Origin: Zootoca vivipara
Taxonomy: Eukaryota
Length of the DNA stretch: 64,000 nucleotides
Direction of reading: 5' to 3'
NCBI RefSeq assembly: GCF_963506605.1
Contig: NC_083282.1
Location: 868,001-932,000 of the forward strand
In this document: positions 23,066 through 63,975 of the stretch, piece by piece
Layout: the number at the start of each line of letters is the position of its first letter
Position numbering within the stretch: position 1 is the first letter of the stretch
The notes under the pieces: generated by a model
What the model saw: only the letters and a program-made list of their open reading frames with translations
The model's database searches: none
What the model was told of the DNA's origin: nothing
Translations under genes and position numbers: made by a program

Positions 23066-23113
<48 letters not shown>

Positions 23114-23243
23114 AGCCTGCCCATCTGGCTGGGTTTCCCCAGCCACTCTGGGTGGCTCCCAACAGACTATTAAACAAAATAAAACTTTAAAAACTTCCCT
23201 AAACAGGGAAGCATGGATTGTCCACAATCCAACTACAGTTTAC

Positions 23244-23477: not shown

Positions 23478-23649
23478 CTGAAGACAACAAACACACAATG
23501 AAGTTAGAGACATCTGGTTTATTCTTAGCTGGTTGCAGATTCTTGGAGCTCATGACCAGGACTTGGAAATAGGGGCCTTTGCGAGAGATTGGTGAAGGAG
23601 ACTGAAAGAGGGTGAGCTTGTCTCTTGGATTAAGGCTGGTTGCTTGTCT

Positions 23650-24530: not shown

Positions 24531-24589
24531 TCATTGGGGCCATTCCAAGTATGAGATTGGGTACAACACTAACTAAAAGTAATACTTAC

Positions 24590-24746
24590 CAACACGATAA
24601 TCAAAGCTGAAGTCCACTGTATAATAAACAACTACCAGAGGCCTTTGGGTGTATCTCTTAGCATCATTGGCAGATTTGCGATGACCCACAAGAGGCAAGG
24701 CATGCTTCACCACATAGTCTTTCATTTCAGTGGCATCAGTGGAATC
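24590..24746 (-). CDS. PDIA4: PDIA4 exon 8
   Basis: DSTDATEMKDYVVKHALPLVGHRK...FSFDYRV; canonical splice sites. Confidence 0.95.
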
Positions 24747-25392
24747 CTGTTTACAGAAACAAAAATCAGTGGGATGTGACCGTTGGAGGAGTTTACCATC
24801 ACAGAAGGCACTGACCCTAACCTTTTCTTTAAAAAAAACCACCACCACCACGCAGGAGAAACAACAGTTTAGGAGGTCTGATGAAAATATTTCAGTTTTC
24901 AGTCTCAGGAAATAGGATTAGCTACAGAATTCAGGATTTCCTGCTATCTTACAGAAAGCCTGGCTACCATGATTACAAGACAGGTTGGGTGACAGGCTCT
25001 GGCGATGTGCAGCTTACTTCCAAGTGTCTGCTAAGCGAAACAGCTTATTCCATTACATGTTGGCTCGCTAGATTTCTTTCTCTCCACCCCTGCCACAACA
25101 ATACACCCCCCCAAAAAAGCCTAGATTTTTGTGCTCTACTCTCCACCAAGATTTTTCATTTCTGAAGCCTCCCTAAGAACCCGTTACCATTTTCTCTTAG
25201 CTTAGTCTCTCCTGCAAGTGACTGTTCAGATTTTGCACATCTATCACTTTGGAACTTGCCAGGGTTTGCTTCAACTGGGCACACTCAGAATTCTCATATG
25301 CTCATTTCAGTAGTCACAGCTCTAGCACCAAGAAATAGGAGACAAATAAATGAAAGAAAACCAACTTGTTTGTACTTGACAGAAGTACTCAC

Positions 25393-25544
25393 TTTAATGT
25401 CTAAAACATGCATTTTAGGCTCATATTTTGAGTGAAATTTTTCAGGTTGCATCACTACCAGTTTTCCTGGGTTCACTTTCAAAAAGCTTGAAATTTCATT
25501 GCTGAAGGTATGATGGAACTTGAATTCTTCTCTTAGGTTATTAG
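25393..25544 (-). CDS. PDIA4: PDIA4 exon 7
   Basis: ANNLREEFKFHHTFS...HVLDIK; GTGAG donor. Confidence 0.95.
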
Positions 25545-27106
25545 CTGAAAAAATATACATAAAAGGTTTGGAGGAATACCAAAGAGAAGAAAGGAAATTG
25601 CTGGGTCAGAAATACAAAAGTATTGACACCTGGAGTGAGGGTTTGAAACAGACCAGCTGGGTCTAGGGTACTGCTGAGTTCCCAGATCTCCTCTTGGAAG
25701 GATTTATTGCCCAGATAACTCTGGTCTTAAGTTCTGTTGCTTAATATATGTAATGATATGGTTTCTTACAGAGACTGAGTGGATACACATCCGGTTGCTG
25801 TTGTTTTTTCCCTTTTGTATTTGTTTTATGCATTTTATGTTGAGCTTGAAAACTCAAATGAATGCAGAACGATTGAATATTTTGCATAGCATTACTCTCC
25901 TTTAATTGTGGAACTATTTATGTGACAAAGCTTCAAACAGTACACACAAATGCAATAATGAACCACTACCAACCTCCACATGGATCTGGAAGCTCACAAA
26001 AGGGCACGAAGGCAATGCTCATCTCTAGTTTGTCCCCAGCAATGAGAATTAAGAGGCACTCTCTCTCTTGATCAGGTGCTTCCATGTAGCTATGAAGACT
26101 GTTGTCAGACCTCTTCCATGAACGTGTCTAATCCTTTTTTTAAAAAAGGCCTGTTCGCTAGTGGCCTCACCCCCATTCTTGTGCTTTTGCATTCTGTAAA
26201 TTAATTACTCATTGGCATGGTTTGGACAACAGTATTTCCCATCATGAGACCTAGTTGGGGAAAATATGAGGCTCATGGGCTCCCTTGCTCTTCCAAGGGA
26301 AGGTGAACTGCAACTAATTCAAAACTGGATGTGGGAGTTTTCAAATCTCCTTCTGTCTTGCATGAAGGAAGGAATCTTGCTAGGTTTGTTCTTGTAACAT
26401 TACATCTGAACCAAACCAATGTGTAGAGTAGAACCTAATATTTTCTGTCCTGAAGCTACTACAAATCTATTTCAGTGGATGACCAAGAAAGTTACACTTG
26501 CAAATTTCTCCATATTATTCATAATTTTAAGAACCTTTCATGTATTCCCCGTAGTCATCCCCCCCTCAAAGAGTCTGAATAGCATTTGTCTCTCTTCATA
26601 GGGAAAGAGTGCTAACCACCTAAACAATTTAGTAGTTCTCTCCAGTACTCTGTTGGAGAATGCCCTTTCTGAGCTGGGATGACTAGAACAGGACCGAAGT
26701 CTTCAAGTTCAAGTCCCAGATAATAAAACCATTCTTTCCTGCTTTAGCTCTTTTCTGTCGCTCTGCACATGCTTGATTACATCAAGAGACACAGATGCTG
26801 CTTCCACTTGCTTAAATTTCATTTTCATGGGCTCATGTGTTTTATACCTATATTTCATGTTCTCTATGAATTCCAATATATTGTTTTTGCCTCCATTCTT
26901 GAGGCAGTGACCCCAGAAAACATCAAAAGGGAAAAGCCAGAAAATGGATGTGGGCAACATTTTGAGAACTGACAAGCCACTGAAGCTGCAAGAAAATAGA
27001 CTAATATTTCTAAGATGCAAGTTTGTCTCCTAGTCTGCAAAGCACTTTCCAAGTGTAGGAATTGAGCAAATGTTGATATACTATGGACAAGAGATAAAGG
27101 GCTTAC

Positions 27107-27265
27107 CAGCATCTTGATACAGTTGGTAGGCTGGGTCCTGGTCTCCTTTGAAAACCCCAATAATAATGACATCGTCTCCCTCTTTCACAAATTCTTGAAC
27201 CTGTTTGACAGCCTGTATCTGTTTGGATGGAGGGCCAGCCTGTTCTATCATGTAATCAACAATGC
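27107..27265 (-). CDS. PDIA4: PDIA4 exon 6
   Basis: GIVDYMIEQAGPPSK...YQLYQDA; GTAAG donor. Confidence 0.95.
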
Positions 27266-28518
27266 CTGGTGAACAAAAAGAAAAACACAAACTTGTGTTA
27301 TTGCTTGACAAAAAGCATTTTATTTCTTAAAGTGAAAACTGGTTATGTTTTGCAAGTGCTCTCTTCTCTGAAAGAGGCACTAGGAGGTGGCCACAAAACT
27401 GCAAATTAACAACATGTTCCAAAGTCTTATTTTCCTCAGGGCTTTTTTTTAAATTAAAAAACCACCTGTTGATAGTTTTATTATTATTCTATTATGTTGC
27501 TGCTAACTATTGCCTTATTAGTGTTAAAGTACAGTAGCAAATAAATCAGATGAACCATGTTGCAAGTTTTCAAACTGAAAGCAGTAATACATATTAAAAA
27601 TAAATAAAGTTTATTTATGACCAAACACAAGCAGTGCCAAGATTCAAAACAACTTTAAAAGTGCTGTCATCATGCAGTACGGAGTTTATCCTGGTTCAAA
27701 ATGATAGGCCTTGTGCTACAGTTACTGCTTGTCTGATTATGGTTCCCTGGTGCTTTGCTAATGTCAGTGAGAAAATAGTGACGCTCAAAAATCCTAGCAA
27801 TCTTCAGAATACAGTGAGGTTCTGTGTCACATCTTCAAGAGCTCCTCAGTTGGTGTGGAATGAGCTCTCAGGCTGGAAGCTTAAACCCACAGAAGAAACA
27901 AGATTCCACTTTCTCCCTCCATTGATAAGCTTATGCCTTAGCCATGAAAAGTGTTGGGGCACGTCCCACGGAGTGTGTCAAAGCAACAGAGAAACACCAA
28001 GTTCTAGGAAGAGTCAGTTGCTTTACTGACAGCATAATGCATTTTCAGTTACATACTGTACAGTTATAGATCCATATTACCCAGCCAAGGGCAGGGGCCA
28101 AGAGCAAACTTGCCTTAAACACAACAGTATTTATACTATATGTTGTGCTGAGTCATTCCCACTTGCTTGACTAGCTGCAGGTGCAAGACAACACACACCC
28201 AAATTAAACAAAACACTGAAATTAACCATTTTGTCCTTTTTCTCTGCATGCATAAACCCTTATATTAACAAAAACTTTCTATAACATTTCAAAATAAGGT
28301 GCAGGCAAATACCAATCACAGACCAATTGTACAAACAGCATTAACAGAAACAAGTAATGCTGCACCACAATAAATGCAGCTCCAATGCCGAAGTCCAGGG
28401 CAGTTTCAACATCATCTTACATACATATAGAATGTAATTCTTAGCTCAGTGTCTATGAAACAAACAGGACCAAACTCACATATTTACTGTGAAGAAAAAG
28501 AAGGTGCTTTACCCATAC

Positions 28519-28724
28519 CATATTTTTCTCTTGGACCATTGTAGTCAAAAGGTTTGCCTTTGCGGAAGATCTTGAGTAATGGATATCCAGAAATGTCAAA
28601 TCTCTTAGCAAGATTGGTTTCAGCAGTAGCATCAACTTTAGCAAGGGGAATTGGAGGTGTTCGCTTGCTCAACTCCTTAGCTGCTTTCTCATACTCTGGA
28701 GCCAGCCGCTTGCAGTGTCCACAC
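28519..28724 (-). CDS. PDIA4: PDIA4 exon 5
   Basis: [33 protein letters not shown]...GPREKY. Confidence 0.94.
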
Positions 28725-29087
28725 CTCAATAGGGAACAAGAATGGGTAACTTGGTAGCCAAAAGCTCTCAAAGATGGAGAGAAATCTATTTTCACTGCTT
28801 GAATAGATAGTCCTGTTCAACTCCCCATAGTGCTTAAAATTCCTGTCTTTTCTGAAGTGCCAATTCTTACATCTGTATCCATTTTGTAGGCAAGTGCCCC
28901 AGAGATGCAGCTGGCTTGAAAATATTGTCAATGTTTTGAGCTGGATCCCCAAGCTCCTATGCAAATTGCAGATAACAGGCATACACACAAAGGACCTTGG
29001 TTATCCAGTGGCTGCTTAATAACTTACATATGCAATGAAAATTACACATTTGCATAGAGGTTCAACAGACTGAATACTTGGTCAATA

Positions 29088-29328
29088 CAGTGGTACCTTG
29101 GTTTAAGAACGGTCCTGTTTAAGAACGATTCGGTTTATGAACTCCGCAAAACTAGAAACAGTGTCCCGGTTTGTAAACTTTACCTTGGTCTAAGAACAGA
29201 ATCCAAACGGTGCAAGGGCCCCAGTGGCGGGAGGCCTCATTAGGGAAAACGCGCCTCAGTTTAAGAACGAATTCGTTTTAAGAACAGACTTCTGGAATGG
29301 GTTAAGGTTGTAAACCGAGGTACCACTG
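29088..29328. mobile_element. Tigger-like MITE
   Basis: CAGTGGTACCT...AGGTACCACTG with TA TSD. Confidence 0.75.
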
Positions 29329-29825
29329 TATTCAAATGCAGCAAACAGGAAGGCAGAAATAGAAAATGATATTTGCCAATCCTCATCTCAAGACATTACA
29401 AGTTTTCATTTCATTTGAATGCGTGCCGCAAAACTAATAAGACTCCAGGTCTACTCCAAGTATTGCCTAGAAGCAACCTACATCAAAAACTGAATACACT
29501 ATATAGCTATCATTTCTGTTACCCAGATTTTTAAACAATTCAAACGCTTGAAAAGATAAACCATGATGTAATGTTTTTGCACATACCAGATAAAAATGTG
29601 CACTGGAGATTACAGAGATACAGCCAGTCCCCTCCCACTAGCTCCAAATTTTTCCAAAGCTCTAAATGCAGCAGGAATATTGACTCCATAAAGCCAAACT
29701 GAACATGCCCTATACTTTTGTACCTGGGGCAGGGCATACGAACTCTGCTTGCGGTTCCTATATCAAATGAAGGAAGAGATAAACACTATGAAAGATAAAA
29801 GGCAAAAATCTCTCTTTTCCTTTAC

Positions 29826-29964
29826 CATGGAGCATAGAATTCAACCAGGATTATGTCAGCCTCGTTCACGACTAAATCAAAGTTTTCGCTGGTCAACACT
29901 AATGTGACTTCAGGTGGTGGGACCCAATCAGGCTGCGAAACTTCTTTCACTTTAGCCACAATTT
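29826..29964 (-). CDS. PDIA4: PDIA4 exon 4 (missing from the ORF track)
   Basis: Hand translation EIVAKVKEVSQPDWVPPPEVTLVLTSENFDLVVNEADIILVEFYAPW; TAG acceptor, GTAAA donor. Confidence 0.95.
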
Positions 29965-31478
29965 CTACAAAAAGAATATGAAGAGAAAAATGAGCAATGA
30001 CAGGTGGAAGGGGCAGCTTGTCTACTGCAAAGGCCTTGCATGTGCAGAAGGAACCAGGTCACCTTTGCCTTGACAATGTTCTCGAAGAAGTGTATCTGAA
30101 GAAGTGTGCATGCACACAAAAGCTCATTCCAATGACAAACTTAGTTGGTCTCCAAGGTGCTACTGGAAGGAATTTTTTTATAATGTTCTCGAACGACAAC
30201 TATCCCTTTATGCGGAAAGAACCTTGGCAGAATACTGCCTGCCAACTAATTCTATTCCCTGCCTATTCCTCTTACATATGCTCAACTTGAATTCTATGTC
30301 ATATTACAGCATGTCAGCACACAGAATTTTTTTTAAAAAAAATCCAATATACTAAATGTTAATCACACAGAAACCTTATCTGTTTGTACGCAGCACTATC
30401 AGTCTTCCAGGCACCCATTTGGAATGATGGAGAACTGGCAGGTTGGGTCTTAGGCTTTTCTGGCTGAGCTATCCAAAAAGCTCAAGACCCTTAATCTCAG
30501 GGTTGTGGCTTTGAGCCCCACATTTGGCAAAAGATTCCTGCATTGCAGGGGGTTGGATTAGATTACCCCCGTGGTCCCTTCCAGCTCTATGTTTCTACTT
30601 CACATCCCACAGGAGTTAAAATGCACAAAAACAAGCCCTTCTTAACTGACTTTGCTCTGAAATTCTATGTTGCAGTTCTACAATTGCACAGAAAAAGGAA
30701 ATTGCTACCACAGTTTTGCTGATTACAAAAATCACCTACAGATTTGCTGCTAGCTCACCTAGCTTGGAGCTGGGGGCAGGAGGCATGGTTCCTAGAAAAT
30801 CCTTCAGTCAACACAGCTTATTTTTCTGGTGATACTGCAATGTGTTTAAGCCATTTTAAAAGCTTTTAATGCAAAATACTCTGCATTAGGATTATTTTCA
30901 TATTACAGTGCTGTGATAAGCATCCTATGTATCCCTTTCCCGGAGCTCCTGCCCCAAGTGGAAATGAAGAGGCCCCTGGTGTGGGGACAGCTAGCACAAC
31001 TCCCTGTGGAGGGAATGACACAATTTCTTTGCATGATATCCAGAAACATGGATATCAATTGTACACGAGTATCATGGGAAGTCAATTGTACATCCTCTAC
31101 CAATGCAAGCTTGCAACATGCCCTTAGAACCACAGGTAGGACCCTCAGACCTCCCTGGCTCTACTTCACAACTTGGACGGTGTCCCTGACCTCTGAAAAT
31201 GCCTCTGCCTTGCCTGGATGGAGGACAGAGGGGTGTCCAGGTGTGGGTCCAGAAGCCAATTTACTGCACAAAGGCAAAAGGTACATACAGGCCCTGTTCT
31301 GCTCTTTTGCCCCGGCCCTTCTGCTACCACGGCCATGTGGCCCCCAGGGGAAAAAAGGATACTCACCCACCTTCCTGTATTTTAGAAGACACCACTCAGA
31401 TTTTGAGTGAACAAAAGGGTGTATTAAACAGAAGAACCTGAGAAAAGCCTGCAGGATCAGAAGTGTGCTGCTGCTCAC

Positions 31479-31684
31479 CTGCTTCTGTTCTGGATCCCTC
31501 ATAATCCACAGGCTGCCCCTTCTTCAGAATTTTGATGGTTGGGTAGCCACTGACGTCAAAACGCCCGGACACCGTGGAGGCTGCTGTAGCATCTATTTTG
31601 GCAACTGGGATGGGAGGGTCATTTTCTTTCAATACTTGGGCTATTTTTTCATATTCTGGTGCAAACTGCTTGCAATGCCCACAC
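31479..31684 (-). CDS. PDIA4: PDIA4 exon 3
   Basis: CGHCKQFAPEYEKIAQVLKENDPPIPVAKIDAT...YEGSRTEA. Confidence 0.96.
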
Positions 31685-32180
31685 CTGAAGAAAAATGAAT
31701 TAATTCTGCAAGAGTTTAACTTCCGCACTCAATTTCTACAGCACAACTTTTGAGAAACTATAGGGCTGGTTTTACAACACAGCAGTCGGGTACGTCACAT
31801 GTCTGTATAGCTTGAACAGGTTGGGTCATATTCTGGAAAGAAACAAAGTCACTGCCCAGAAGGGCAAAGCCCACCAGGAAATAAATCCCAGGGTCACTCA
31901 AACACTGGGGCTTTGCTGGCTGCAGGCATTACTGAAGCAGTGTCCACCCAAGTGCTTCTGGTCTGCTCACACTGCTCCATTCCTCTCTACAGCCATGTAT
32001 GGAGCCGCACAGTCATGTTAAGAAAGGAGTTTGACTAGCAGATTTTAGGTGTTCTTCAAAATGACTATGAACTACACTGTGCAAGAGCAGAGCTGTATGC
32101 CATTCCTGTGGGGCTGCAGGAATCAGCACAGCGTAATCATGGGAACTCTCCAGTACTTTTTTAAAAAGCAGTACCAAGTA

Positions 32181-32415
32181 CCGTGTTTCTCATATTATAA
32201 GACATGTCTTATATTTATTTTTTCCTCAAAAAAACACACTATGGCTTATTTTCAAGGGATGTCTTATTTTTTTCCTCCTCCTCCTGCCACGGCCGGCATT
32301 GCTGCTGCGCCTATCACTATGTCTTATTTTCGGGGTATGGCTTATATTCCCTGAATGCTTAAAAATCCTGCTATGGCTTATTTTATGGGTATGTCTTAAA
32401 ATATGAGAAACAGGG
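32181..32415. mobile_element. pogo/Tigger-type MITE; near-identical inverted copy at 48146-48382
   Basis: TIRs CCGTGTTTCTCATATT...AATATGAGAAACAGGG; TA TSD. Confidence 0.8.
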
Positions 32416-32594
32416 TAAGTCAAGCCTGAGCACAGAAGATTTAGAATTGACCCACACATTCAGAAAAGTCAGAATTGGGTGCAGAATTCCCAAGACTGTG
32501 CCACTTCCGGCAACAGATGTGAAAGCTCCTTGCTTGTGAGATGCTCATGTGAGGGCTCAGTGGAAGGGAGCAGCTGCCAGGATGATAGCACAGT

Positions 32595-33030
32595 GGTCTT
32601 AAAGGATCTACATTGGCTCCCAGGATGTTTCCGCGTACAATTCACTGCTGGTGCTGTCCTTTAAAGCCCCAAATGGCCTCGGCTCAATATACCTGAAGGA
32701 GTGTCTCCACCCCCATCATCCAGCCCAGACAGTGAGGTCCTCCTCCAAGGGTCTTCTGCTGGTTCCCTCACTGGAAGAAGTGAGGTTACAGGAAACCAGG
32801 CAGAGGGCATTCTCGGTAGTTGAGACTCCACTGTGGAACACCCTCCCATCAGATGTCAAGGAAATAAACAATCATATGACTTTTGGAAGACATCTGAGGG
32901 CAGCCATGTTCAATGAAGTTTTTAATGCTTGATGTGTTATTGTTTTAATTTGTTGGGAGCTGCCCAGAGTGGCTGGCGGAACCCAGTCAGATGGGCGGCA
33001 TATAAATTATTATTGTTCTCATTATCATTA
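32595..33030 (+). mobile_element. L2-type LINE 3' end
   Basis: Same family as 13170-14266. Confidence 0.8.
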
Positions 33031-33384
33031 TCATCGCAAACATCACACAGACACTTTTTGCAATTGGATGTAAGTGCACCATGAGATTATGCACTCCCAC
33101 TCCAGCATGCACATTTCAACAGCACCAACCATGTTTTTTTCTTCTGAACATTTTAATTCCTTCCCATCTCCCATCAACAATTGTGGTTAAGTACAGAAAA
33201 GGGCATTTAATATATAGCGCACCGATTTAAAATAAACACAAAGAGCACCAAGTAGCTTTTGTCTTGTTTTATGGGAACTCACAGCGGGAAGAAGAAACAT
33301 CCTACTGCAAGTGCAGCATAGCAGACATGAAATATAAATTAACTTCAAGGAGGAGGATGGAAACACTGGGACAATCAGACTTAC

Positions 33385-33547
33385 CATGGGGCATAGAACT
33401 CCAAAAGCACAGTGTCCTTGCCTTCAACAAAAGTATCAAAGTTTGCATCATTCAATACGACAACACCATTTTCCTCTTTTATTTCTGAACTATCATCTTC
33501 ATCATAATCATCAATGTCCTCGTCATCATCATCAACACTGGTTTCCC
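33385..33547 (-). CDS. PDIA4: PDIA4 exon 2 (missing from the ORF track)
   Basis: Hand translation GETSVDDDDEDIDDYDEDDSSEIKEENGVVVLNDANFDTFVEGKDTVLLEFYAPW, including the acidic N-terminal tract. Confidence 0.95.
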
Positions 33548-33934
33548 CTGGGGCAATAAAGTCTAATTAAGGGGAGGGAAAATATATTGTTGTCATTTTT
33601 CATAATGTAAAAAACCCCGTAACATTAAAATCAGCTATAAGAACAATAATAAAGCAAGAACCTAAAATGCTCATACATAAAAATATATTAAATGACAGAT
33701 CTAAACCACCCCCAAAAAGACGAGTACAGCAAGAGGCCACAAACGTACCCAAGTACCCTCTAAATTCATGACCCAGAATCTGGTGTCTAAAAACAGAGGT
33801 GGTGTCAGTTGCCCCTCCCTGGGCAAATGGGGAGCCACCACTGAGAAGGCCTTCAAATATATATATAAACAGGGTTTGGGTTGGTTCACATGGGAAGAGG
33901 CAGCCCTCGAGATATTGGGGTGCTGAGCTGTGTA

Positions 33935-34312
33935 GGTAAAAAAGCTAAAGGACCCCTGGATGGCCAAGCCCAGTCAAAGGCGACTATGGGGTGCGGCACT
34001 CATCTGCTTTCAGGCCGAGGGAGCTGGCGATTGTCCACAGACAACTTTCTGGGTCAGTAGGACTAAACCGCTTCTGGTGCAATGGAACACCGTGACGGAA
34101 ACCAGACCGCACACAAATGCCGTTTACCTTCCTGCCACAGCGGTACCTATTTATCTACAGTACTTGCACTGGCATGCTTCTGAACTGTTAGGTAGGCAGG
34201 AGCTGGGACAGAGCAACAGGAGCTCACTCCATTGTGCAGATTTGAACCACCAACCTTCTGATTTGCAAGCCCAAGAGGCTTAGTGGTTTATACCACAGCA
34301 CCACCTGCATCC
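33935..34312 (-). mobile_element. Sauria SINE
   Basis: Reverse complement of the 59827-60170 family. Confidence 0.8.
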
Positions 34313-36590
34313 TTGAGCTGCGTAAGGCTTTATAAGTCCAAAGCACCACCTTGAACTGAGCCCCAAACCTAGTTTGTAGCCAATGCAGTCATGCCAAGAT
34401 TTATACTCCGACCATCTTGCTCCAGCCAGCAATCAATTAAGCAATCCTGGCCACTGAATTCTGCATCAGTCACAGTTCCAAGCTGTTCAAAAGGCAGCCT
34501 GATGCATAGCACATTGCACTTGGTTTGTCACATTAATTCTATCAATGCATGTCCTTTTTTTGAAGCACTACCCCCAGCAGCATGGCAGCAAATGATGCAC
34601 CTTTTTTGCTGCCACACGAATTAGGTGTTTGGTGGGGTAGAGCGGGAGCAAAATAAATAAACCAACCAGAATAGACAATTCAGCTGCCCTGCCTATTGGT
34701 TCTTGGGCCTTCGTGACCCAGTGTCTTTTACCCAGAATCAGGAGAGTCCCCTCTCTCTTCCATTTATTGTGCTTCTATTACAGGCCCTCCCTAATCCCAC
34801 CAACCTCCCAAAGAATAGTGGGTTTCATTTGGCTTGGCAGGCTAGCTTTAGAAAAAAACAAAAGTAACAATTGTTAATGAACAGGCCTTACTGTGGAGTA
34901 CAGTATGCTGTTAGTGTGGTGTGTTGGGAACCAAACAACAAACATCAATGTGGAAAAGATAAGTCATTCTCTGAACAAGAAACATGCTGCTATAATATTT
35001 GGTCACAGAAAAATAGGCATAAGATTCACTACTATTATCTTGCCACCTGTACAGCTTCTCCAACATCAACATACCTAAATTCAAGCTTGCTATCCAGCTT
35101 GTGTTAGAATGGAAAGGTTTCAGTGACTAATAAACTGAGAGAAAAGAAGCAGATAAGCTATGAAGGACATTTATTTTCTAGCTTTCACAGCCCTGACCTA
35201 CAATCATTTATAGAAGATTCTTAAAACACGACCCATGTTGAAAGGTACTTGGATAATAATAATAATTTATTATTTATACCCCGCCCATCTAGCTGGGTTT
35301 CCCCAGCCACTCTGGGCGGCTTTCCACAAAAGATTAAAACTACATTAAAACATCAGTCATTAAAAACTGTTAAGTACCTTTTCCAAAATTAGAATACTTA
35401 ATTCTAAAGGTCCCTAAAACACTGACCTTGGAATAACTCATAAGTTTCTTCCAACAAGATGAAATGAAAAAGAATGCTGGGATAACAGCAAATTGTGTGA
35501 GGGAGAAATGATTGTTTCATGCCCAGTATATAAATGAAGAGTTTTTATCCCAATATACACATGCAAGCTGAACTGATAATAGGGTTTAGGCAGATTTAAT
35601 TACATGTGTTTAAATCAGTATGGTTAAAATTGCAAACATAGTGTCTCCAGAGAACTCATTTGTATAACAATGCAAACAACTGTGACACAATCCAGTATGA
35701 ACATCTCCTGTGAAAACACAGTGCCTTGGAGCAGGACACAACACAACCCTGATTCCATTTTCTGCGGAAGAGGACGCAAGTAAAAAAAACAGACAAAGTT
35801 GTGCACACAGGAAGCTGCCTCACAATGTCAGACCATAGTTTTTGCTTTGTCTTCAGTACTGAATAGCAGCTGCAGCTTTTCAGGGTTTCTGGAAGGCGTC
35901 TTCCCAGTCCTACCAGGAGATGCCATGGAGTGAACCTGGGACCATTTGCAACTGTGTTACAGACCTCCCTCCCTGAAGGTCACTCAAGTCAGAAACAGAT
36001 CTGGCATTTACTGCCTTTTAGTGCTCCTTAAGCCTAGATTTACGTTCATAAGGAGGCCAGAATCATCTTTCCAGATCAGACAAAGGGGTTCAGCACTCTT
36101 TTCTGTATCTTTCTGAGGAGCATCCAGATTAGTTGCTGCAGGAAGAACCACCATCCCAGACAAGTATTTGTGGCACCTTAAAAGACTAACCAGTTTACCA
36201 CGGCATGAGCTTCCCTAGACGGCAGACCCCAGATATTCCCAGCAGTGGAAGCTGCAGCTCTGGCCCAAGGCAGAGAAAGAGGCAACCACTGAACGGAACA
36301 AACCAGTAAATAGACATTTGGGCCGTTCTTCATTTTGGAAGGAACGGAAGGCGTCCAGCCTCGAAGCCAATGTCAGCCCCGGGAACTCGCATTCTGAAAG
36401 TCGCTGCTTGTTTCCGCTAGTCCCGGCTCCCGTCGGGCGAGAGGGGACCTGGCGGGAAGGAGGCCCGAGGCGCCCGGGAGAGGGCTCTGAAGGCGCCGCG
36501 GGGCCCAGAAGCCCTTCCTTCCTTCCTTCCTCGCTCGCTCGCTCGCTAGCTCCGGTTCAGCCCGCCCTTCCCTTCCTTCCCCGCGCTCAC

Positions 36591-36690
36591 CGTCTGCTGG
36601 GCCCCCGTGCTCCGCCTGGGCGCTGGCGGGCGGGGCGAGGCGGGCCACGGCCAGCAGCAGAGCCAGCACGAGCAGCTTCGCCGCGCTCAT
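36591..36690 (-). CDS. PDIA4: PDIA4 exon 1 (signal peptide)
   Basis: MSAAKLLVLALLLAVARLAPPASAQAE hydrophobic signal; phase-1 GTGAG donor; the ten exons total 1932 nt (643 aa plus stop) in frame. Confidence 0.92.
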
Positions 36691-50643: not shown

Positions 50644-50965
50644 ATGAGCGGGTCCTTCTGCCGGCTGCCCGCAGCCCTGCGGCGGTGGCGCGACGTGCGG
50701 CCCACGACACTCTTGGCTCGGCCGCTGAGCCAGGCCGGCCCCGGAGGCGGCGGAGCGGAGGGCGGTGAGGGCGTCGCTGCGGCCGCCGGGTCGAAGGAGG
50801 CGGTGGGGCGCCTGGTGCGCGCTCACCCGGTGGTGGTGTTTATGAAGGGCAGCCCCGCGCAGCCCCAGTGCGGCTTCAGCAACGCTGTGGTGCAGATCCT
50901 GCGCCTGCACGGCGTCAGCGACTACCGCGCCTACGACGTCCTGCAGGACCCCGGCCTGCGCCAAG
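50644..50965 (+). CDS. GLRX5: Glutaredoxin-5, mitochondrial, exon 1
   Basis: Arg-rich transit peptide; [24 protein letters not shown] monothiol CGFS motif; G|GTAGG donor. Confidence 0.96.
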
Positions 50966-53096
50966 GTAGGCGGGCCCGGCGACTCCGCGGAAGAACTCGG
51001 CGGGCGGAGGGGCCTCTGCGCCAGCGCCAGCCCCGCGAGGGGAAGGCTGGCTTGGCTTGGGGGGCGGCAGGGAAACCTCGCTGGCTTCGTTCTCCCTCTG
51101 GAAAGGGGGGCTGCTGCTGCTGCTGCCCTCCTGCATTTGCCCCTCTTTCCTTAGAAAGGCCTGGTGTGGTTCCACGTACAGTATTACATTCCCTGGCGGG
51201 TGGGAAGCGTCGCTGCGGGTTACGACTGTGGGGCCGGGCGTGGGACGTCTTCTCTGCCGTGGTGCCCAGTGCCCTTCCCCGCCGGGGAAATGGGAAGAGT
51301 GGGCGCTGCTGGGTGCCACTGCCTCTTTCGGCAGAAGAGCACAACCCTCCCCTCTCTCCTTCAATCTGATGTTTCCCGAAAGGCCGTGTGTGAAGTGTTG
51401 CGTGTGCACATGGACCCATCCAGGCTGCTGTAGCCTCCAGCGCTTCTCTCCACCGGCCTTTCCTGCTCTGGAGCAGGCCCAGACAGGGGAGGGGGGCATA
51501 CGGGCCACTTGGCCCGGGCCTCCGATTCCAAAGGGGGTCTCGGTCAGCATATTCACAATCAGCAAAATGAAAAAAGGAGCACAGCGTAAAAAAGGGGGAG
51601 GCACATTATCTACCTGGCCCGGGCCTCTGCCTGGCTCTGCAAGAGCCTGCTCTGGAGTAATGTGAGGGGAAGCGGTTGCCCTTTGGTCCTGCCAACTGGA
51701 TGGAAATGTCCATGCAAGTGATCGGATGATCCTTGTAGGATCGCCAGTCTCTTTTTGCAACTCAGGAGGGCCCTGCAACCAAATTGAGATTTCCAGTTGC
51801 AGGGTTTGCATAAGTTGTTCTTAATAATATTTTATTATTTATTAAATTTATATACTGTACTGCCCTTCATCCGAAGACCTCAGGGTGGTTCAGAAGATAA
51901 AAATACACGATAAAAGCACAAAATAAATACTTAAAAAAACAAAGCAAAACAAGAACACCCCCCTCCCACAAGCACATTTAAAAGGCTGTAGAATATAAAT
52001 CACCCAAAGGCCTGGTTGAAGACAAACGTTTTTGCCTGGTGTCTAAAGAGTTATGAGATTGTATCATTTGTCAGAGCACTTCTAGAATATACACAAGAGC
52101 TTGCACCACTCCCTCAACTCCAAATGTCTGTCAGGAAGAGATAAAGAAATTGGACAGAGCTAAAGAATTTGTATTTGCCAAACAGAGCAAATAGGTGTTG
52201 AAAAGCAGTAAAATATCCCAACAAAATTTTTAATAAGCAAAGACATTTAAGGTTAGGTCCAAGAAGTGCTATATCTTTGTTCAAAAGCTTCTGTTTAATG
52301 CATTAGGAAAGTCTTTGTGTAGTTTCTGTGAATCTGTTGGCCAGGGATCAGTGCTAGAATTTGAATCTTGAATAAGTTGCAGAAAGAAAAATTTCTACTC
52401 AATCATGAATCAGGCTTGGCCGAACCTTCCTCACAGGTTGGTTGTGAAAATAAAATGTGGAGGTGGAGAAAGATGTGCTTTACCTTGAGCTCCTTGAAGG
52501 AAATGTGGGATATAAATGTAATAGTAAAAATAAGAATGCATTGCTATTTGAACATGCTAAGTAGCCATGGAATATAGAGTGACAGTTGAAAGGAAAAATG
52601 GGGCCGTGAGAGCAGAATCTTTTGCTTTGAAGGAAAATGGCTGGATAGAATCTGGAACCAGGAACTCTCCTTTTTGGAGGAAGGATACACTGCAACATTT
52701 GTTTTGCAGGCCTCCCTTGTATACAGGCAATGATTGATTGTGCTGTGGTTTAAAAAACTAAGCCTAGGGCTTGCTGATCAGATGCAGGAGCAGGGACCGA
52801 GCAACAGGAGCTCACCCCATCGCGGGGATTTGAACCGCCGACCTAATTGGCAAGCCCTAGGCTCTGTGGTTTAACCCACAGCGCCACCAGCAAAAGGACA
52901 GGCCCCTTGCCCCAAGTGGAGGAGGAGAAGAGAGAAGGTGATACAGACTTACAGCCAATAAGATTTGCAAAAAGGCTATGGGTTGTGGGCTTCCTTTCTT
53001 ATCTCCAGTATAGTCTTAACTGCCTTGCCTGTTCAAAAACACTGTTATCAGTTGTCTAATGTATTTGGTTTAACTTGTCTTTCTGTTTTGATTCAG

Positions 53097-53275
53097 GAAT
53101 CAAAAACTATTCAAACTGGCCTACTATTCCCCAGGTCTTCCTGAATGGTGAATTTGTAGGGGGCTGTGATATACTTCTTCAGATGCATCAAAGCGGCGAC
53201 CTAGTGGAGGAGCTTAAGAAATTAGGAATTCGCTCTGCACTTCTGGATTCGGAGAACAACCATGAAAAAAAATAA
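53097..53275 (+). CDS. GLRX5: GLRX5 exon 2
   Basis: [36 protein letters not shown]; joined CDS 501 nt (166 aa). Confidence 0.96.
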
Positions 53276-56200: not shown

Positions 56201-57087
56201 TCATCCAGTGTATAAATTACTCTTAGTTGAACAAGCTACACTTTTAGTTAACATACTGTAGCTGAAGGCAGCTGTGGTGAAGGGAAGCAGAAAATAAAAT
56301 AATCAGTTCACTTGTATTGGGGTTAAAAAAAAAAGCTGCCTGCTTTTTTAAAAATTACAAATGCTAGGGTGTTGCCCTGTTCTCATCTCCAAACCACATT
56401 GTAAACAAAAAACATAATATCCAAGAAAAGTGTTACATACAGACTTTATTAAGACAGGCACAGAATAAACAATTATGAGCCATCCAGTCCAATCATTTTC
56501 ACAATTAATAACCAGAATGCTTAAATAGAAAGTTCTGTGAATGCATGTAGAACTTACCTTGAGCAAATTTCCTGGAGAAATTAGGCGTTCTAGTTTTCCA
56601 GCAACACTGTAATACTTACGTGAGAGATAATATTTGGAAAATAGTTTTAATAGCTTAACAAATAAAGCATGAAGAAAACAAAGAAAACCTAATAGCAACT
56701 GACCAAACTACTGCACTAAGGAAAATACAAATCCTAATATCTGAACCATATGAAGAGCCAAATTATTTGAGTGTATTTTACACACTTACCAATATCAATA
56801 GGCTTTCCCATATTTTGCACTTTCCCTGTGCTTGACACTTTGAAGGCTCAAATCCCTAAAGGTCATATAAGCTCCAATTAGCTCAGTTACTTCTGAGTAA
56901 ATGTGCATAGGCTTACTCTGCAAATGCTGTCTTCTACAACTTGCTGAACCAGCCAAATAGGCCATACATTATTGTCTGCATTGTTATATATTATATGCAG
57001 GCAGAAATGTAAGATGAGGCTGCTACATTTATATTACAGAAAACAAAACAATGCAAGTAATATTTGACATAGCCTAATTCTATGCAT

Positions 57088-57382
57088 TCTGAAGGAAATC
57101 AGCCCTGAGTGCTCACTGGAAGGACAGATCGTGAAGCTGAGGCTCCAATACTTTGGCCACCTCATGAGAAGAGAAGACTCCCTGGAAAAGACCCTGATGT
57201 TGGGAAAGATTGAGGGCACTAGGAGAAGGGGAAGACAGAGGACGAGATGGTTGGAGAGTGTTCTCAAAGCTACCAACATGAGTTTTGACCAAACTGTGGG
57301 AGGCAGTGCAAGACAGGATTGCCTGGCGTGCTCTGGTCCATGGGGTCACGAAGACTCAGACAGGACTAAACAACAAAAACAA
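57088..57382 (+). mobile_element. BovB/RTE LINE short 3' copy
   Basis: Matches 59000-59300; 14-bp TSD CTAATTCTATGCAT. Confidence 0.88.
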
Positions 57383-57644
57383 CTAATTCTATGCATGACT
57401 CACTATTCCAGTTTTTTAAAATGTGACTGTCTTGCAGTTGATAATCAGGTAATTCTTACAAAATGCTTTGCTCCTAAAATATACAAAAAAACACATTTGG
57501 AATAAAAATATTGTGCTTAAGTCAGCAGCCCACAAACATTTTGTATAAAAGGTAAAGCTGATTCAAAAACACCCACCCACCCCACTCACACACAAAAACA
57601 AAGTTCACCAGTGCCAATCACAAACAAGCAACGACACTCTAGGC

Positions 57645-57740
57645 CAGGCACCCCCAAACTCCGGCCCGCCAGATGTTTTGGACTACAATTCCCATCATCC
57701 CTGACCACTGGTAGGCCATAACATCTGGAGGGCCGCAGTT
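57645..57740. mobile_element. Palindromic hAT MITE, right TIR disrupted by BovB
   Basis: Left TSD CTCTAGGC at 57637-57644; partner copy at 59304-59311. Confidence 0.8.
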
Positions 57741-59302
57741 GCACACTACACCCCAGGTAGTGTGGTTGCTGACCTTGAGCCAGACATCTTGGAGAGTGAA
57801 GTCAAATGGGCCTTAGAAAGCACTGCTAATAACAAGGCCAGTGGAAGTGATGATATTCCAGCTGAACTATTTAAAATTTTAAAAGATGATGCTGTTAAGG
57901 TGCTACACCCAATATGCCAGCAAGTTTGGAAAACTCAGCAATGGCCAGAGGATTGGAGAAGATCAGTCTACATCCCAATTCCAAAGAAGGGCAGTGCCAA
58001 AGAATGCTCCAACTACCGCACAATTGCGCTCATTTCACACGCTAGCAAGGTTATGCTTAAAATTCTACAAGGAAGGCTTAGGCAGTATGTGGACTGAGAA
58101 CTCCCAGAAGTGCAAGCTGGATTTCGAAAGGGCAGAGGAACCAGAGACCAAATAGCAAACATGCGCTGGATTATGGAGAAAGCTAGAGAGTTCCAGAAAA
58201 AGTCTACTTCTGCTTCATTGACTATGCAAAAGCCTTTGACTGTGTCGACCACAGCAAACTATGGCAAGTTCTTAAAGAAATGGGAGTGCCTGATCACCTC
58301 ATCTGTCTCCTGAGAAATCTCTATGTGGGACAAGAAGCTACAGTTAGAACTGGATATGGAACAACTGATTGGTTCAAAATTGGGAAAGGAGTACGACAAG
58401 GTTGTATATTGTCTCCCTGCTTATTTAACTTATATGCAGAATTCATCATGCGAAAGGCTGGACTAGATGAATCCCAAGCCGGAATTAAGATTGCCGGAAG
58501 AAATATCAACAACCTCAGATATGCAGATGACACAACCTTGATGGCAGAAAGCGAGGAGGAATTAAAGAACCTTTTAATGAGGGTGAAAGAGGAGAGCGCA
58601 AAATATGGTCTGAAGCTCAACATCAAAAAAACCAAGATCATGGCCACTGGTCCCACCACCTCCTGGCAAATAGAAGGGGAAGAAATGGAGGCAGTGAGAG
58701 ATTTTACTTTCTTGGGCTCCTTGATCACTGCAGATGGTGACAGCAGTCACGAAATTAAAAGACGCCTGCTTCTTGGGAGAAAAGCAATGACAAACCTAGA
58801 CAGCATCTTAAAAAGCAGAGACATCACCTTGCCGACAAAGGTCTGTATAGTTAAAGCTATGGTTTTCCCAGTAGTGATGTATGGAAGTGAGAGCTGGACC
58901 ATAAAGAAGGCTGATCGCCGAAGAATTGATGCTTTTGAATTATGGTGCTGGAGGAGACTCTTGAGAGTCCCATGGACTGCAAGAAGATCAAACCTATCCA
59001 TTCTGAAGGAAATCAGCCCTGAGTGCTCCCTGGAAGGACAGATCGTGAAGCTGAGGCTCCAATACTTTGGCCACCTCATGAGAAGAGAAGAATCCTTGGA
59101 AAAGACCCTGATGTTGGGAAAGATTGAGGGCACTAGGAGAAGGGGACGACAGAGGACAAGATGGTTGGACAGTGTTCTCGAAGCTACGAACATGAGTTTG
59201 ACCAAACTGCGGGAGGCAGTGCAAGACAGGAGTGCCTGGCGTGCTATGGTCCATGGGGTCACGAAGAGTCGGACACGACTAAACGACTAAACAACAACAA
59301 AA
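57741..59302 (+). mobile_element. BovB (RTE clade) LINE, 5'-truncated, RT domain
   Basis: KGVRQGCILSPCLFNLYAE...NLRYADDTTL...HGVTKSRTRLND; one stop and one frameshift upstream; (CAA)n tail. Confidence 0.95.
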
Positions 59303-59784
59303 GCTCTAGGCCAACCCCAACCTCTCTCACCACCAAAGACACAAGCAAATAGCAAAGAGAACCTGCACAAGTGACGCTGACACAAAACTCCACACAAACA
59401 TTAAGCAAAATAGAAACATCACCATGTGACCCCCCATCCCCGCCCACCAAGACCCCCTCCACCTCTTCCCTCCTTTTGTTACTAATGTAACCCTAATGTC
59501 TCAACAAATGAAATGGACCTATAGAAAATGTAACCTGAAAAAAAGAAAGGCAAAGCCTTTTTTAAAAAAAAACGTAAAGGCATTCAAAGCAGCAAGGCAT
59601 TTGATGTGAAAAAGGGATAAAATTGGGAAATTGCATTGTTTAGTCGTGTCCAACTCTTTGTGACCCCATGGACCAGAGCACGCCAGGCACTCCTGTCTTC
59701 CACTGCCTCCCGCAGCTTGGTCAGACTCATGTTGGTAGCTTTGATATAGGACACCTATTTCTTCATAGTGTAAAACGTTAATTG

Positions 59785-61083
59785 TCTGCAAAATTCACTG
59801 CCAACATTAGGAAGCGGGTAACATTTGGGACACAGGTGGCGCTGTGGGTTAAACCACAGAGCCCCTAGGGCTTGCCAATCAGAAGGTTGGTGGTTCGAAT
59901 CCCTGCGACAGGGTGAGCTCGGTCCCTGCTCCTGCCAACCTAGCAGTTCAAAAGCACGTCAAAGTGTAAGTAGATAAATAGGTACCACTACAGCAGGAAG
60001 GTAAACAGCGTTTCCGTGTGCGGCTCTGGTTCGCCAGAAACGGCTTAGTCCTGCTGGCCACATGACCTGGAAGCTGTATGCCGGCTCCCTCAGCCAATAA
60101 CGTGAGATGAGCGCCGCAACCCCAGAGTCTGTGACAACTGGACCTAATGGTCAGGGGTCCCTTTACCTTTAAGGAAATAAAGAGTAATCCAAAATATACT
60201 TTGGTAATAACTCTTTGATAAGCACCCTTGGAGTCTTACACAGATAACAATTTAAAGTTTCAGGTGTCACAGGCTTATACCATGATTGCTTTTCGGGGAA
60301 CTGCACAAAAGAGGGCACTCGAACCCTTCCCAGCACTTAACTGGCATCCTCACTTAGTCTTTTGTAGGAGCCAATAAAATCATACCTAACCGTGCAAGGC
60401 TGGCACAGATTGTAGATGGGCATCCAGTGCTCATTCATGCTCTCCACTTCTTCATCTAAGAGGTACTGGATGAATTCAGAGAAGGTGATGTCATCTCTGG
60501 GGCTTCACCCAGTGCCATTTTACTATTTCAATGCCATACTTTAACTGATATTCTTTGATCTCTCTGAATTTATTCTTTTAAGCAGACAGCAGTCTCTCCA
60601 TTGGGTCCCAGACAAACATGAACTTGAAGTAGTGCTTAAGTCGGTAGTGGATTCATGTTGCTGAGGAAAACTAGGTCTCTCCGGTGGTCCATCTTCAGCT
60701 TTGCATACACGTTCCCCAGGGTGCTGCCCAGCACCTTGAGAATGTGCTTCCAGTTGGAGCAGGCCACCTTGGGCACGTAGCAGTACAGGAAGCGGTGCTT
60801 GTCGTTCACCAGGAGGTGCTTGAGTGTCGTCCGCCAGTGCGCTGCTGAGAGCTCCCACATGCTGCAAGGCGCGTCTGCTTGGCCGCACGCAGCACGCCTT
60901 GCCTGGATCTCACCGTGAAAAGGGTGCAGCAGTGGGGGTTTCACCTCTGCCAGAATGCCCTCGATCATCAGGAGCAGGCCACTTGACGCCACATGGAAGG
61001 CACGAGAAAGCGGGAGCCGCTGCTGCCACCCCGCAAGCAGGCCTAGGAGACGCCCCCATGGGGGCGGAAGAGCACGGAGATAT
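59785..61083 (-). pseudogene. CHST14: Dermatan 4-O-sulfotransferase 1 pseudogene
   Basis: [68 protein letters not shown] and YPLPNV all collinear with CHST14; likely start ATG>ATA, at least 3 frameshifts, 2 TAA stops and a SINE insertion. Confidence 0.9.
59827..60170 (+). mobile_element. Sauria SINE inserted in the CHST14 pseudogene
   Basis: tRNA-like head with GGTTCGAATCC B box; ACCTTT tail. Confidence 0.88.
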
Positions 61084-61089
61084 GGCCTG

Positions 61090-61990
61090 CTGGGCGGGCG
61101 GCCTCAGGCTGGAGTGGCACGCGGGTGCCAGTGCCACTTGATGGTGAGCCTGCCAGCCTCAGCCCGGCCAGCAGCCGCTCTGGCCACCGCTGCCTGTCTG
61201 AGCCTGCAGAGGGCGCTTGGGCAGCGGGGCAGGACCCGCCCCCTGCAGCTCCGCCTCCACGTGAACGCCGCGAGACAGGCAGGCAGCCGCTTGGAGGGAA
61301 GCGTCTCCTCGAGGGGGAGGCGCCGGAGGAGACGTCAACGCGCAGTCCAGCGTCGCTTCCTCCTTCCGAGGCGGCTTTCCCGAGAAATAGCCGCGAGCGC
61401 CCGCATTGGCTTTCGTTGCACCACGTGCTCCGGGCGCTGCCCTTCCATTGGACGCTTTCTCTCGCGCTCCGAAGGCGGCGTGTGGGCAAAGCGGTGCGTG
61501 GGTCTCGGCGCCTGCTGTTGCTCCGAGAAGGGCAAGAGCCGCCGCCCGCCTCGAGGGTCCCAGAAGAGAAGCGCCGAGAGAAGCGCCGCTCCAGTCCCTC
61601 CCTCGCTCGCTCGCGCGGGCGCCAGGTAAGCCTCAGGCTTCGCGGGGCCTCGCGCGCCCGCTCCCCCGCCGAGAGGCCTCGTTCTCCGGAGCCGCCCTGC
61701 CTCCCTCCCGAGTCCCTTCCCCGGGCGCCCTTCTTCTCCCACGAGGGGTCTCGGGGCGCCGCTCTTGCCCTTCAGCCTCTCAGGAGTGGACCGCCTTTTA
61801 ATGTATCTGTGAGGGGGGGGGGCTTTGCGTGCTCTTGGTCGCCTTGGGCAGATGTCACATGACGCCCGCCCCGTTTCTCTTCAATGCTCCCGTTCCGGTG
61901 CCTGCGGGGATCCGAAGAGCCTCGTGCCCTTGGAGCATCCCTGGGCTGAGCTTGGCTTTCGAGCGGCGCCTCTGCGCCCTGGCAGGAAGA
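61090..61990. promoter_or_regulatory. CpG island with CCAAT boxes and a + strand splice donor
   Basis: CpG-dense; ATTGG at ~61406 and ~61447; CAG|GTAAGC at 61625/61626. Confidence 0.65.
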
Positions 61991-62079
61991 GTGGGCTTTT
62001 ATTTGTACAGTAGTTGCTTTCCTAGTGCTGTAGTCCAAAGTCTTGCAGAAATGCAGCTACCAGTGGCAGCAGCACCGTT

Positions 62080-62753: not shown

Positions 62754-63539
62754 GCCTAGATGACTCTCAGGGTCATTTCCAACTCTACAATTTTATGATT
62801 CTAAGTGGCAAAGCAGTCTAGAAGAGTTGTGAATGCAGTTTCATTCCAGCAAAAGTAAAAACCAAACCTCTTTTACGCAATTAGAGCAGGTAGCTTACCC
62901 AAACCTTTATCTTCATAAATTTGCAAAAAAACAAAACCAAAACTTTGCATAGAGAATTTATGTGGTCCTTTTTGTGGTACAGTCATACCTCGGTTTAAGT
63001 ACACCTCAGTTTGAATATTTTCAGTTTAAGTACTCTGCGGACCCGTCTGGAACGAATTAATCCACTTTCCATTACTTTCAGTGGGAAAGTTTGCCTCAGG
63101 TTAAGTACGCTTCAGGTTAAGTACGGATTTCCGGAACCAATTACAATCATACCTCAGGTTAAGTACACTTCAGGTTGAGTACTCCGCGCACCCGTCTGGA
63201 ACAGATTAATCCACTTTCCATTACTTCTTCTTTTAATCAATTTTTATTAGATTTTCACTTACAAACCAATCATATCATATCAATTATTCCAAATTATATA
63301 AATACATATCTATTCATTATAGTCCAATATAGTCCCGATCTTTCCCAACAAGTCTATTCTTATTTTTCTTTCTCTTGTCACAGCTTTTGAGATGATTTCA
63401 AACAAGATTTAACACAAAGTCACTGTTTCTGTGAGGATTTTCTGTCCAGCCTCCCCATAAATCCTTGCAAGGGCGTACCCACCATGCGGCAAGTTAGGGC
63501 AGCTGCCCTACTCTAGAAGCAGGGCTGGTGGGCAGAGGT

Positions 63540-63975
63540 GGAGCACAGCCCGGCGGAGCGTGAGTTCGCCATTCCCGCCGCACCGCGCCGCACCCTCCCT
63601 CCAGCTCCCCGGCGCGCCCTCAGGCAAGGCCAAGCGCGGCGGGGAACCAGGGAGCGCAGCGCGGTGGGCGGGAACGCCGAACTCGCGCTCCGCTGGGCTG
63701 GGCTCCGCCTCCGCCCACCAGCCCTGCTGCTAGGGAGGGGCACAGCCCGGCGGAGCGCGAGTTCGCCGTTCCCGCCCGCCGCGCTGCGCCCTCCCTCCAG
63801 CTCCCCGTCGCGCCCTCTGGCAAGGCCAAGCGCGGCGGGGAACCAGAGAGCGCGGCGCGGTGGGCGGGAACGCTGAACTCGCGCTCCGCTGGGCTGGGCT
63901 CCGCCTCCGCCTACCAGCCCTGCTGCTAGGGAGGGGCACAGCCCGGCGGAGCGCGGGTTCGCCGTTCCCGCCCAC
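63540..63975. repeat. GC-rich tandem repeat, ~195-bp unit, ~2.2 copies, probably TE-internal
   Basis: GCACAGCCCGGCGGAGCG recurs at ~63543, ~63739 and ~63936. Confidence 0.7.

What the first reader, a model, noticed from the sequence alone, without database searches (positions are those of the whole stretch)
59785..61083. CHST14 (D4ST1) is dead at this locus: unitary loss or decayed duplicate?
Seen: a full-length collinear remnant with a probable ATG>ATA change, frameshifts, TAA stops at 60578-60580 and 60337-60339, R>W in the RDP 3'-PAPS-binding motif, and a SINE splitting the last codons. It still abuts a CpG island with CCAAT boxes, unlike a typical retrocopy. Known: CHST14 is a single-exon gene and its loss causes musculocontractural Ehlers-Danlos syndrome through dermatan sulfate deficiency. 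Inference: if it is the only copy, connective-tissue glycobiology in this lizard would be unusual. A relocated functional copy is at least as likely.
Basis: partly seen in the sequence, partly recalled or inferred. Interest (0 to 1): 0.7.

Follow-up and report, generated by a model that had tools for sequence, protein, structure and literature searches.

The report
Dead CHST14 parent, relocated working copy
This lizard has not lost the connective-tissue gene CHST14: the broken copy here likely marks the gene's older home beside PIGA, and an intact copy on another chromosome, likely made from the gene's own mRNA, has probably taken over its job.

Summary
The remnant is real (ATG>ATA, four frameshifts, two TAA stops, R194W, a SINE), but it is not a unitary loss. 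An intact 357-aa CHST14 lies on contig C15, and the genome holds only these two copies. The dead copy looks like the parent, not a decayed daughter. It sits head-to-head with PIGA, whose promoter is the CpG island. CHST14 and PIGA have adjacent or near accession numbers in 9 of 14 squamates (snakes, monitor, agamid, amphisbaenian), but not in lacertids. The C15 copy matches from about 175 nt upstream of the ATG to just past the parent's AATAAA, then runs into an A-rich tract, which suggests retroposition. The two copies are sisters on the lacertid stem (100/100). A crude simulation suggests both worked for about half the time since the split. The BAHD1–CCDC32 site has no CHST14 trace, so the gene has moved at least twice in squamates. 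Verdict: a likely orphan-retrogene replacement. Expression was not tested; no intron loss or target-site duplication supports the retro step.

The parts
60170..61083 (-). CHST14 pseudogene, codons 1-345 (ATA start, 4 frameshifts, 78-nt deletion, R194W, TAA at 60580-60578 and 60339-60337)
59827..60171 (+). SINE inserted in codon 345 (Sauria-SINE type; name recalled); 71-89% identical to 21 other full-length copies in the 424 kb held
59780..59821 (-). last codons of the CHST14 remnant
61084..61258 (-). 5' UTR remnant shared with the C15 copy; homology is near shuffle level beyond about 61259
56434..59779 (-). 3' UTR remnant, shared with C15 in blocks 59746-59779, 59557-59636, 57387-57569, 56798-57076, 56481-56778, 56434-56486, broken by repeat insertions
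   Evidence: 705 of 838 aligned bases identical over 5 blocks
56445..56450 (-). AATAAA polyadenylation signal; homology to C15 ends about 11 nt downstream, where C15 has an A-rich tract
57746..59300 (+). young LINE fragment with a reverse-transcriptase-like frame (RTE/BovB type; name recalled), 99% identical to a copy on C15; shorter pieces at 59636-59744 and 57080-57386
61001..62000 (.). CpG island with CCAAT boxes (61451, 61409); promoter of PIGA and likely the former shared promoter of CHST14
61623..61631 (+). predicted splice donor (CAG/GTAAGC, exon ends at 61625) of a non-coding first exon of PIGA; the first coding exon lies about 8 kb beyond the window (C7:939702-940428)
50644..53275 (+). 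two-exon glutaredoxin gene (GLRX5 by recall), tail-to-tail with the remnant

Best explanation
The window holds a broken CHST14 head-to-head with PIGA, and an intact CHST14 lies on contig C15; the broken copy is likely the parental gene, and the intact one is likely an mRNA-derived copy that replaced it. Proposed sequence: (1) in early squamates CHST14 left the BAHD1-CCDC32 site (absence shown for this genome, inferred for others); (2) before snakes, monitors, agamids and amphisbaenians split it settled beside PIGA and likely shared its CpG-island promoter (linkage inferred from accession numbers); (3) on the lacertid stem its mRNA was likely retroposed to C15, about 10 kb past the end of a DDAH1-like gene, and because the coding region is one exon the copy was complete (boundaries and A-tract shown, mechanism inferred); (4) both copies likely stayed under selection for a while; (5) the parent then decayed, while the island was kept for PIGA. 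Dermatan 4-O-sulfation is predicted to be normal.
For: Intact 357-aa ORF at C15:15958488-15959561, with the full Pfam domain. It is identical to RefSeq XP_034996093.1, which the source names CHST14 of Zootoca vivipara. It keeps 161 of 166 columns invariant in 34 outgroup rows, against 138 for the dead copy. Only two copies exist; the other 6 hits are 33-42% paralogs. All 5 lacertid CHST14 records lie on 44-47 Mb contigs, while PIGA lies on 95-102 Mb contigs in the 3 lacertids listed. CHST14 and PIGA are linked in 9 of 14 squamates with both records: Varanus KAF7247942/43; Python XP_007423226/27 on one 531-kb scaffold; Ophiophagus ETE61802/61800 on one 127-kb scaffold; also Crotalus tigris, Ahaetulla, Erythrolamprus, Liasis, Pogona and Rhineura (same contig, 101 numbers apart). 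The 5 unlinked are Heteronotia, Hemicordylus and 3 lacertids. Homology ends about 11 nt after the parent's AATAAA, and C15 then has T6 followed by 15 A in 18 nt. There are 5 such tracts in 100 kb, about 0.001 by chance for a 25-nt window. Beyond the 3' end the score is 82.5 against a null of 83±10; beyond the 5' end it is 55.5 against 44.7±6.2, below the null maximum of 68.5. Dead and live lacertid copies are sisters, 100/100, sharing 19 residues found in at most 2 of 26 named outgroups. Of 62 amino-acid differences, 40 fall on the dead branch, 12 on the live branch and 10 are unresolved. Pairwise dS is 0.40 and dN 0.106. Simulated death at birth gives 100-125 nonsynonymous differences against 72 observed.
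Against: No intron loss can be shown, since both copies are single-exon over the shared span. No target-site duplication was found (best score 4.0, null mean 4.5, 69% of 300 shuffles reach it). The A-tract cut-off was chosen after seeing the tract, and T/A runs occur elsewhere in this UTR. The live copy's matching signal reads TAAATA, so it would need another one (AATAAA at C15:15956852, ATTAAA at 15957563). The dead branch is long (0.35) and was flagged by the tree tool. The simulation is crude: the live CDS stands in for the ancestor, the rates are assumed and the grid is coarse. Expression and promoter of the live copy were not tested.
Confidence: 0.72

Rival explanations
1. The parent died and the C15 copy replaced it, but the copy arose by DNA-level duplication or transposition of about 2.3 kb, not through mRNA.
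For: No intron loss, no target-site duplication. A GC-box-like motif lies inside the copied 5' stretch (61243-61233). PIGA itself appears to have moved with its introns, so DNA-level moves happen in this lineage.
Against: The copied stretch ends about 11 nt after the parent's AATAAA and is followed by an A-rich tract. It starts about 175 nt before the ATG and stops short of the PIGA exon 370 nt further on.
Confidence: 0.19
2. The window copy is an ordinary daughter duplicate of the C15 gene that was dead, or nearly so, from the start.
For: It carries most of the amino-acid changes (40 of 52 assigned) and shows CpG decay (28 CpG against 69).
Against: The PIGA-linked position appears to be shared with snakes, monitor, agamid and Rhineura. 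The A-tract is on the C15 copy. Nonsynonymous differences (72) are well below the 100-125 simulated for neutrality from birth.
Confidence: 0.06
3. Functional loss of CHST14: the C15 ORF is intact but silent, so the lizard lacks D4ST1.
For: No direct expression evidence was obtained. The only CpG-rich 500-nt bin next to the C15 copy is its own coding region.
Against: The ORF is kept on the same-sized chromosome in five lacertids (one record is a 217-aa model), with both PAPS-binding motifs and 161 of 166 invariant residues. That is not expected of a silent gene over the lacertid radiation.
Confidence: 0.03

Closest known systems
Orphan retrogenes (Ciomborowska et al. 2013, PMC3548309; Carelli et al. 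2016, PMC4772013; passages read)
   Same: A copy at a new site stays constrained while the parent becomes a pseudogene. Parent and copy coexist first, as the paper describes for CHMP1B.
   Different: Those cases were found through intron loss from multi-exon parents in mammals. Here the parent's coding region is intronless, so only transcript boundaries and the A-tract show the route. Carelli et al. report CpG-island promoters for 9 of 10 orphans; here the parent has the island and none is seen directly upstream of the live copy. CHST14 occurs 0 times in the main text of either paper.
CHST14/D4ST1 of amniotes (mcEDS gene; PMC8872221, passages read)
   Same: Sulfotransfer_2 enzyme with KVACSNWK and RDPMERL motifs. 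The live copy is 94% identical to L. agilis CHST14 and 77-81% to most other lizards.
   Different: Location. Goat keeps the order RPUSD2-C15orf57-CHST14-BAHD1 (PMC10763158). This genome keeps BAHD1, CCDC32 and RPUSD2 on C1 without CHST14.
Unitary pseudogenes such as GULO or UOX (recalled)
   Same: The gene at the orthologous position is dead.
   Different: A working paralog exists in the same genome, so the function is predicted to remain.

Membership tests
Unitary pseudogene | No intact copy elsewhere in the genome | tested here: not met
   Intact 357-aa ORF on C15
Unitary pseudogene | Disabled gene at the position of the working ortholog in relatives | tested here: met
   Indirect: CHST14-PIGA accession adjacency or shared contig in 9 of 14 squamates
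Orphan retrogene (C15 copy) | Parental gene disabled or lost in the same genome | tested here: met
   Lesions; no third copy
Orphan retrogene (C15 copy) | New location without the parent's neighbours | tested here: met
   Next to a DDAH1-like gene; flanks at shuffle level
Orphan retrogene (C15 copy) | Copy bounded by the transcript, with a poly(A) remnant | tested here: met
   Ends about 11 nt after the parent's AATAAA, followed by T6 and 15 A in 18 nt; 5 such tracts per 100 kb. Threshold set after the fact.
Orphan retrogene (C15 copy) | Loss of the parent's introns | tested here: inconclusive
   No intron in the parent over the shared span, so none could be lost
Orphan retrogene (C15 copy) | Target-site duplication | tested here: inconclusive
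   None above chance; short repeats may not survive dS of about 0.4
Orphan retrogene (C15 copy) | Purifying selection on the copy | tested here: met
   161 of 166 invariant columns kept; 12 of 52 assigned changes on the live branch
Orphan retrogene (C15 copy) | Expressed, with a profile like the parent's | not tested
   No read-level evidence was obtained
CHST14/D4ST1 (C15 copy) | Sequence orthology to CHST14 rather than to other CHST paralogs | tested here: met
   Every named hit among the best 120 that names a gene is CHST14/CHSTE; other genomic paralogs are 33-42% identical
CHST14/D4ST1 (C15 copy) | 4-O-sulfation of GalNAc in dermatan | not testable with these tools
   Needs an enzyme assay

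The most novel reading that the evidence does not exclude
CHST14 stayed beside BAHD1 in most amphibians, birds and mammals sampled but became a serial hopper in squamates. It is off the BAHD1 contig in 20 of 21 squamates, sits at a separate site in geckos, has two copies in Hemicordylus, sits beside PIGA in snakes, monitor, agamid and amphisbaenian, and retroposed again in lacertids. Each move would have handed an essential gene to a borrowed promoter. The C7 chromosome end (CRIP2-like, PDIA4, GLRX5, CHST14, PIGA) would be a collecting site for displaced housekeeping genes.
Probability: 0.5. Interest if true: 0.55.

Novelty: new member of a known kind. Interest (0 to 1): 0.36.

Why it matters
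It removes a false 'disease gene lost in a lizard' claim. It also shows a trap: synteny-based pipelines would call CHST14 lost in lacertids, and intron-based retrogene pipelines cannot see this replacement. If it holds, it is a reptile example of a retrocopy replacing its parent with the parent's remains still readable. That allows a direct comparison of expression between the relocated gene and the PIGA-linked gene of snakes and monitors.

Tried and rejected
Unitary loss: rejected. A remnant at the BAHD1-CCDC32 site: tblastn of 160 kb of C1 gave nothing better than E 0.3, and blastn gave only short hits of 16-60 nt, none below E 0.74 within the coding sequence. The C1:42.52 Mb hit is a 34% paralog. 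The BAH family search did not list BAHD1; it was found from its long exon instead. Target-site duplication: none above chance. The alignment labelled '3p end' did not recover the junction block (score 80, null maximum 99); the junction rests. Sequencing runs: no RNA holder listed, and no read-level test of expression was obtained. A promoter or neighbouring gene upstream of the C15 copy was not identified. Earlier findings: none returned. Literature searches returned 0 papers for CHST14+BAHD1+synteny, CHST14+lizard (42), CHST14+PIGA+snake (48) and CHST14+squamate (62). Searches returned nothing on this locus. PMC13320880 has 0 mentions of CHST14 in its main text; its supplements, which catalogue retrocopies, were not seen and may bear on novelty. 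The supplements of the two orphan-retrogene papers were also not read.

Full report
Observation. The window is C7:868001-932000 of the genome held as G000. On the minus strand, 61083-59780 is a collinear CHST14 remnant. Against the intact copy it shows ATG>ATA, frameshifting indels of +5, -19, -11 and -11 nt, in-frame deletions of 3, 78 and 3 nt, TAA stops at 60580-60578 and 60339-60337, R194W in the RDP motif, and a SINE at 59827-60171 in codon 345. Identity is 810 of 949 aligned bases.

Not a unitary loss. A 73-aa query found 8 matches. One is an intact 357-aa ORF at C15:15958488-15959561; six are paralogs of 33-42% identity. A 1.5-kb DNA query finds only these two loci, apart from short paralog hits. 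The intact protein is identical to RefSeq XP_034996093.1, named CHST14 of Zootoca vivipara by the source. It clusters with four other lacertid records, all on contigs of 44-47 Mb. It keeps 161 of 166 columns invariant in 34 outgroup rows; the remnant keeps 138. No second lacertid-named cluster appears among the best 120 of 279 hits, so the C7 copy is probably dead in those species too. That is an inference from annotation, not from their DNA.

Neighbourhood. The CpG island beside the remnant belongs to PIGA, the only PIGA-domain match in the genome (C7:939924, plus strand), with a predicted first-exon donor at window 61625. The remnant therefore lies head-to-head with PIGA and tail-to-tail with a glutaredoxin gene. 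PDIA4 lies further on. The intact copy lies tail-to-tail with a DDAH1-like gene whose last coding exon is near C15:15946500.

Which copy is older. No related genomes are held, so I used the accession numbers and contig lengths printed, counted by eye. Fourteen squamates had both CHST14 and PIGA records. Five are not: Heteronotia, Hemicordylus and three lacertids. The dead copy therefore likely occupies the position of the working gene in snakes, monitor, agamid and amphisbaenian, and the live lacertid copy is the mover. Accession order is only roughly positional; CHST14 and BAHD1 in four birds, on shared contigs, were 9-184 numbers apart.

An earlier move. Goat keeps RPUSD2-C15orf57-CHST14-BAHD1 (PMC10763158, passages). 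This genome keeps BAHD1, CCDC32 and an RPUSD2-like gene within 150 kb on C1, with no CHST14 trace. CHST14 and BAHD1 share a contig in 18 of 23 non-squamates with both records. Four differ (Geococcyx on tiny scaffolds, Rhinatrema, Xenopus laevis, Eleutherodactylus) and Protopterus is uninformative. A shared large chromosome is weak evidence, but Urocolius has both on a 242-kb scaffold. Among 21 squamates, 20 have them on different contigs. The exception, Hemicordylus, has two CHST14 records about 4,800 and 7,900 numbers from BAHD1 on a 459-Mb chromosome. In Heteronotia the three genes lie on three different contigs.

How the live copy arose. Homology between the loci starts about 175 nt before the ATG (window 61258) and runs through about 1 kb of shared 3' UTR, interrupted by repeats in both copies, to window 56434. 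That end is about 11 nt after an AATAAA in the dead copy. At the same point C15 has six T and then 15 A in 18 nt. Five such tracts occur in 100 kb of that strand, about 0.001 for a 25-nt window, with the cut-off chosen after the fact. Beyond both ends, alignment scores fall within shuffle range. This fits a reverse-transcribed mRNA. Against it: no intron could be lost, no target-site duplication is detectable, and the matching signal in C15 has decayed to TAAATA. I put retroposition at about 0.8, given that the parent-died direction is right (about 0.9).

Timing. In a 39-row protein tree the remnant is sister to the four full-length lacertid copies (100/100; live clade 99/92), to the exclusion of Rhineura and Salvator. 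The 217-aa P. lilfordi record was left out. The remnant's branch is long, but 19 residues shared by both copies and found in at most 2 of 26 named outgroups support the grouping. The duplication thus falls on the lacertid stem, before the Zootoca-Lacerta-Podarcis split. Pairwise dS is 0.40 and dN 0.106; 40 amino-acid changes map to the dead branch, 12 to the live branch and 10 are unresolved. A rough simulation matched the 72 nonsynonymous differences best with about 40-50% of the dead branch neutral; neutrality from birth gave 100-125. The parent likely kept working for a while after the copy appeared.

Comparison and verdict. This works like the orphan retrogenes of Ciomborowska et al. (PMC3548309) and Carelli et al. 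(PMC4772013), of which I read passages only. Parent loss, new site, transcript-bounded copy and constraint were met. Intron loss and target-site duplication were inconclusive, and expression was not tested. Loss of CHST14 causes mcEDS in people (PMC8872221, passages), but no such deficiency is predicted here. Searches found no paper on this relocation; supplements were not seen. The gene names GLRX5, CRIP2, PRLHR-like and RPUSD2 and the repeat names are recalled, supported only to family level by Pfam where cited. The striking claim is false; what remains is a well-preserved case of a known process, with a possible wider pattern of repeated moves in squamates. Interest 0.36.

Noticed in passing
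window 3650-64000 and C7:939702-955619: A CRIP2-like exon 1 (about 3690, minus), PDIA4 (about 20744-36600, minus), GLRX5 (50644-53275, plus), the CHST14 remnant and PIGA lie within about 90 kb near the end of C7. Their human orthologs lie on 14q32, 7q36, 14q32, 15q15 and Xp22 (recalled). This may be a site that collects relocated genes.
   Followed up: partly
C7:939702-955619 (L019-L021): PIGA keeps its introns here and is single-copy. Bird and cattle gene models fuse PIGA with ankyrin repeats (P0165, P0170, P0172), consistent with the ASB11 neighbour recalled for other amniotes, so PIGA itself seems to have moved in squamates.
   Followed up: partly
proteins P0008 and P0126: Hemicordylus capensis has two CHST14 records, sisters in the tree (100/99): an independent duplication.
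   Followed up: partly
tree: The branch leading to both lacertid copies is long (0.21 against a median end branch of 0.042): CHST14 changed fast on the lacertid stem before it duplicated.
   Followed up: no
C15:15920740-15946600 (L013, L012, L011): A multi-exon DDAH1-like gene lies on C15. Whether it is DDAH1 itself at a new site or a paralog was not checked.
   Followed up: no
C1:41585500-41591400 (L045, L032): An LTR retrotransposon with long open frames (1380 and 418 aa) and near-identical terminal repeats lies between BAHD1 and CCDC32, in the interval where CHST14 sits in goat.
   Followed up: no
C1:41652258-41653400 (L038): An intronless 381-aa rhodopsin-family receptor (PRLHR-like by recall) lies between BAHD1 and CCDC32.
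   Followed up: no
window 63504-63975 and beyond: A GC-rich tandem repeat of about 180-nt units lies in PIGA's predicted first intron.
   Followed up: no
C1:42519565-42520458 (L007): An open 297-aa carbohydrate-sulfotransferase paralog, 34% identical to CHST14, lies about 0.85 Mb from CCDC32; not named.
   Followed up: partly
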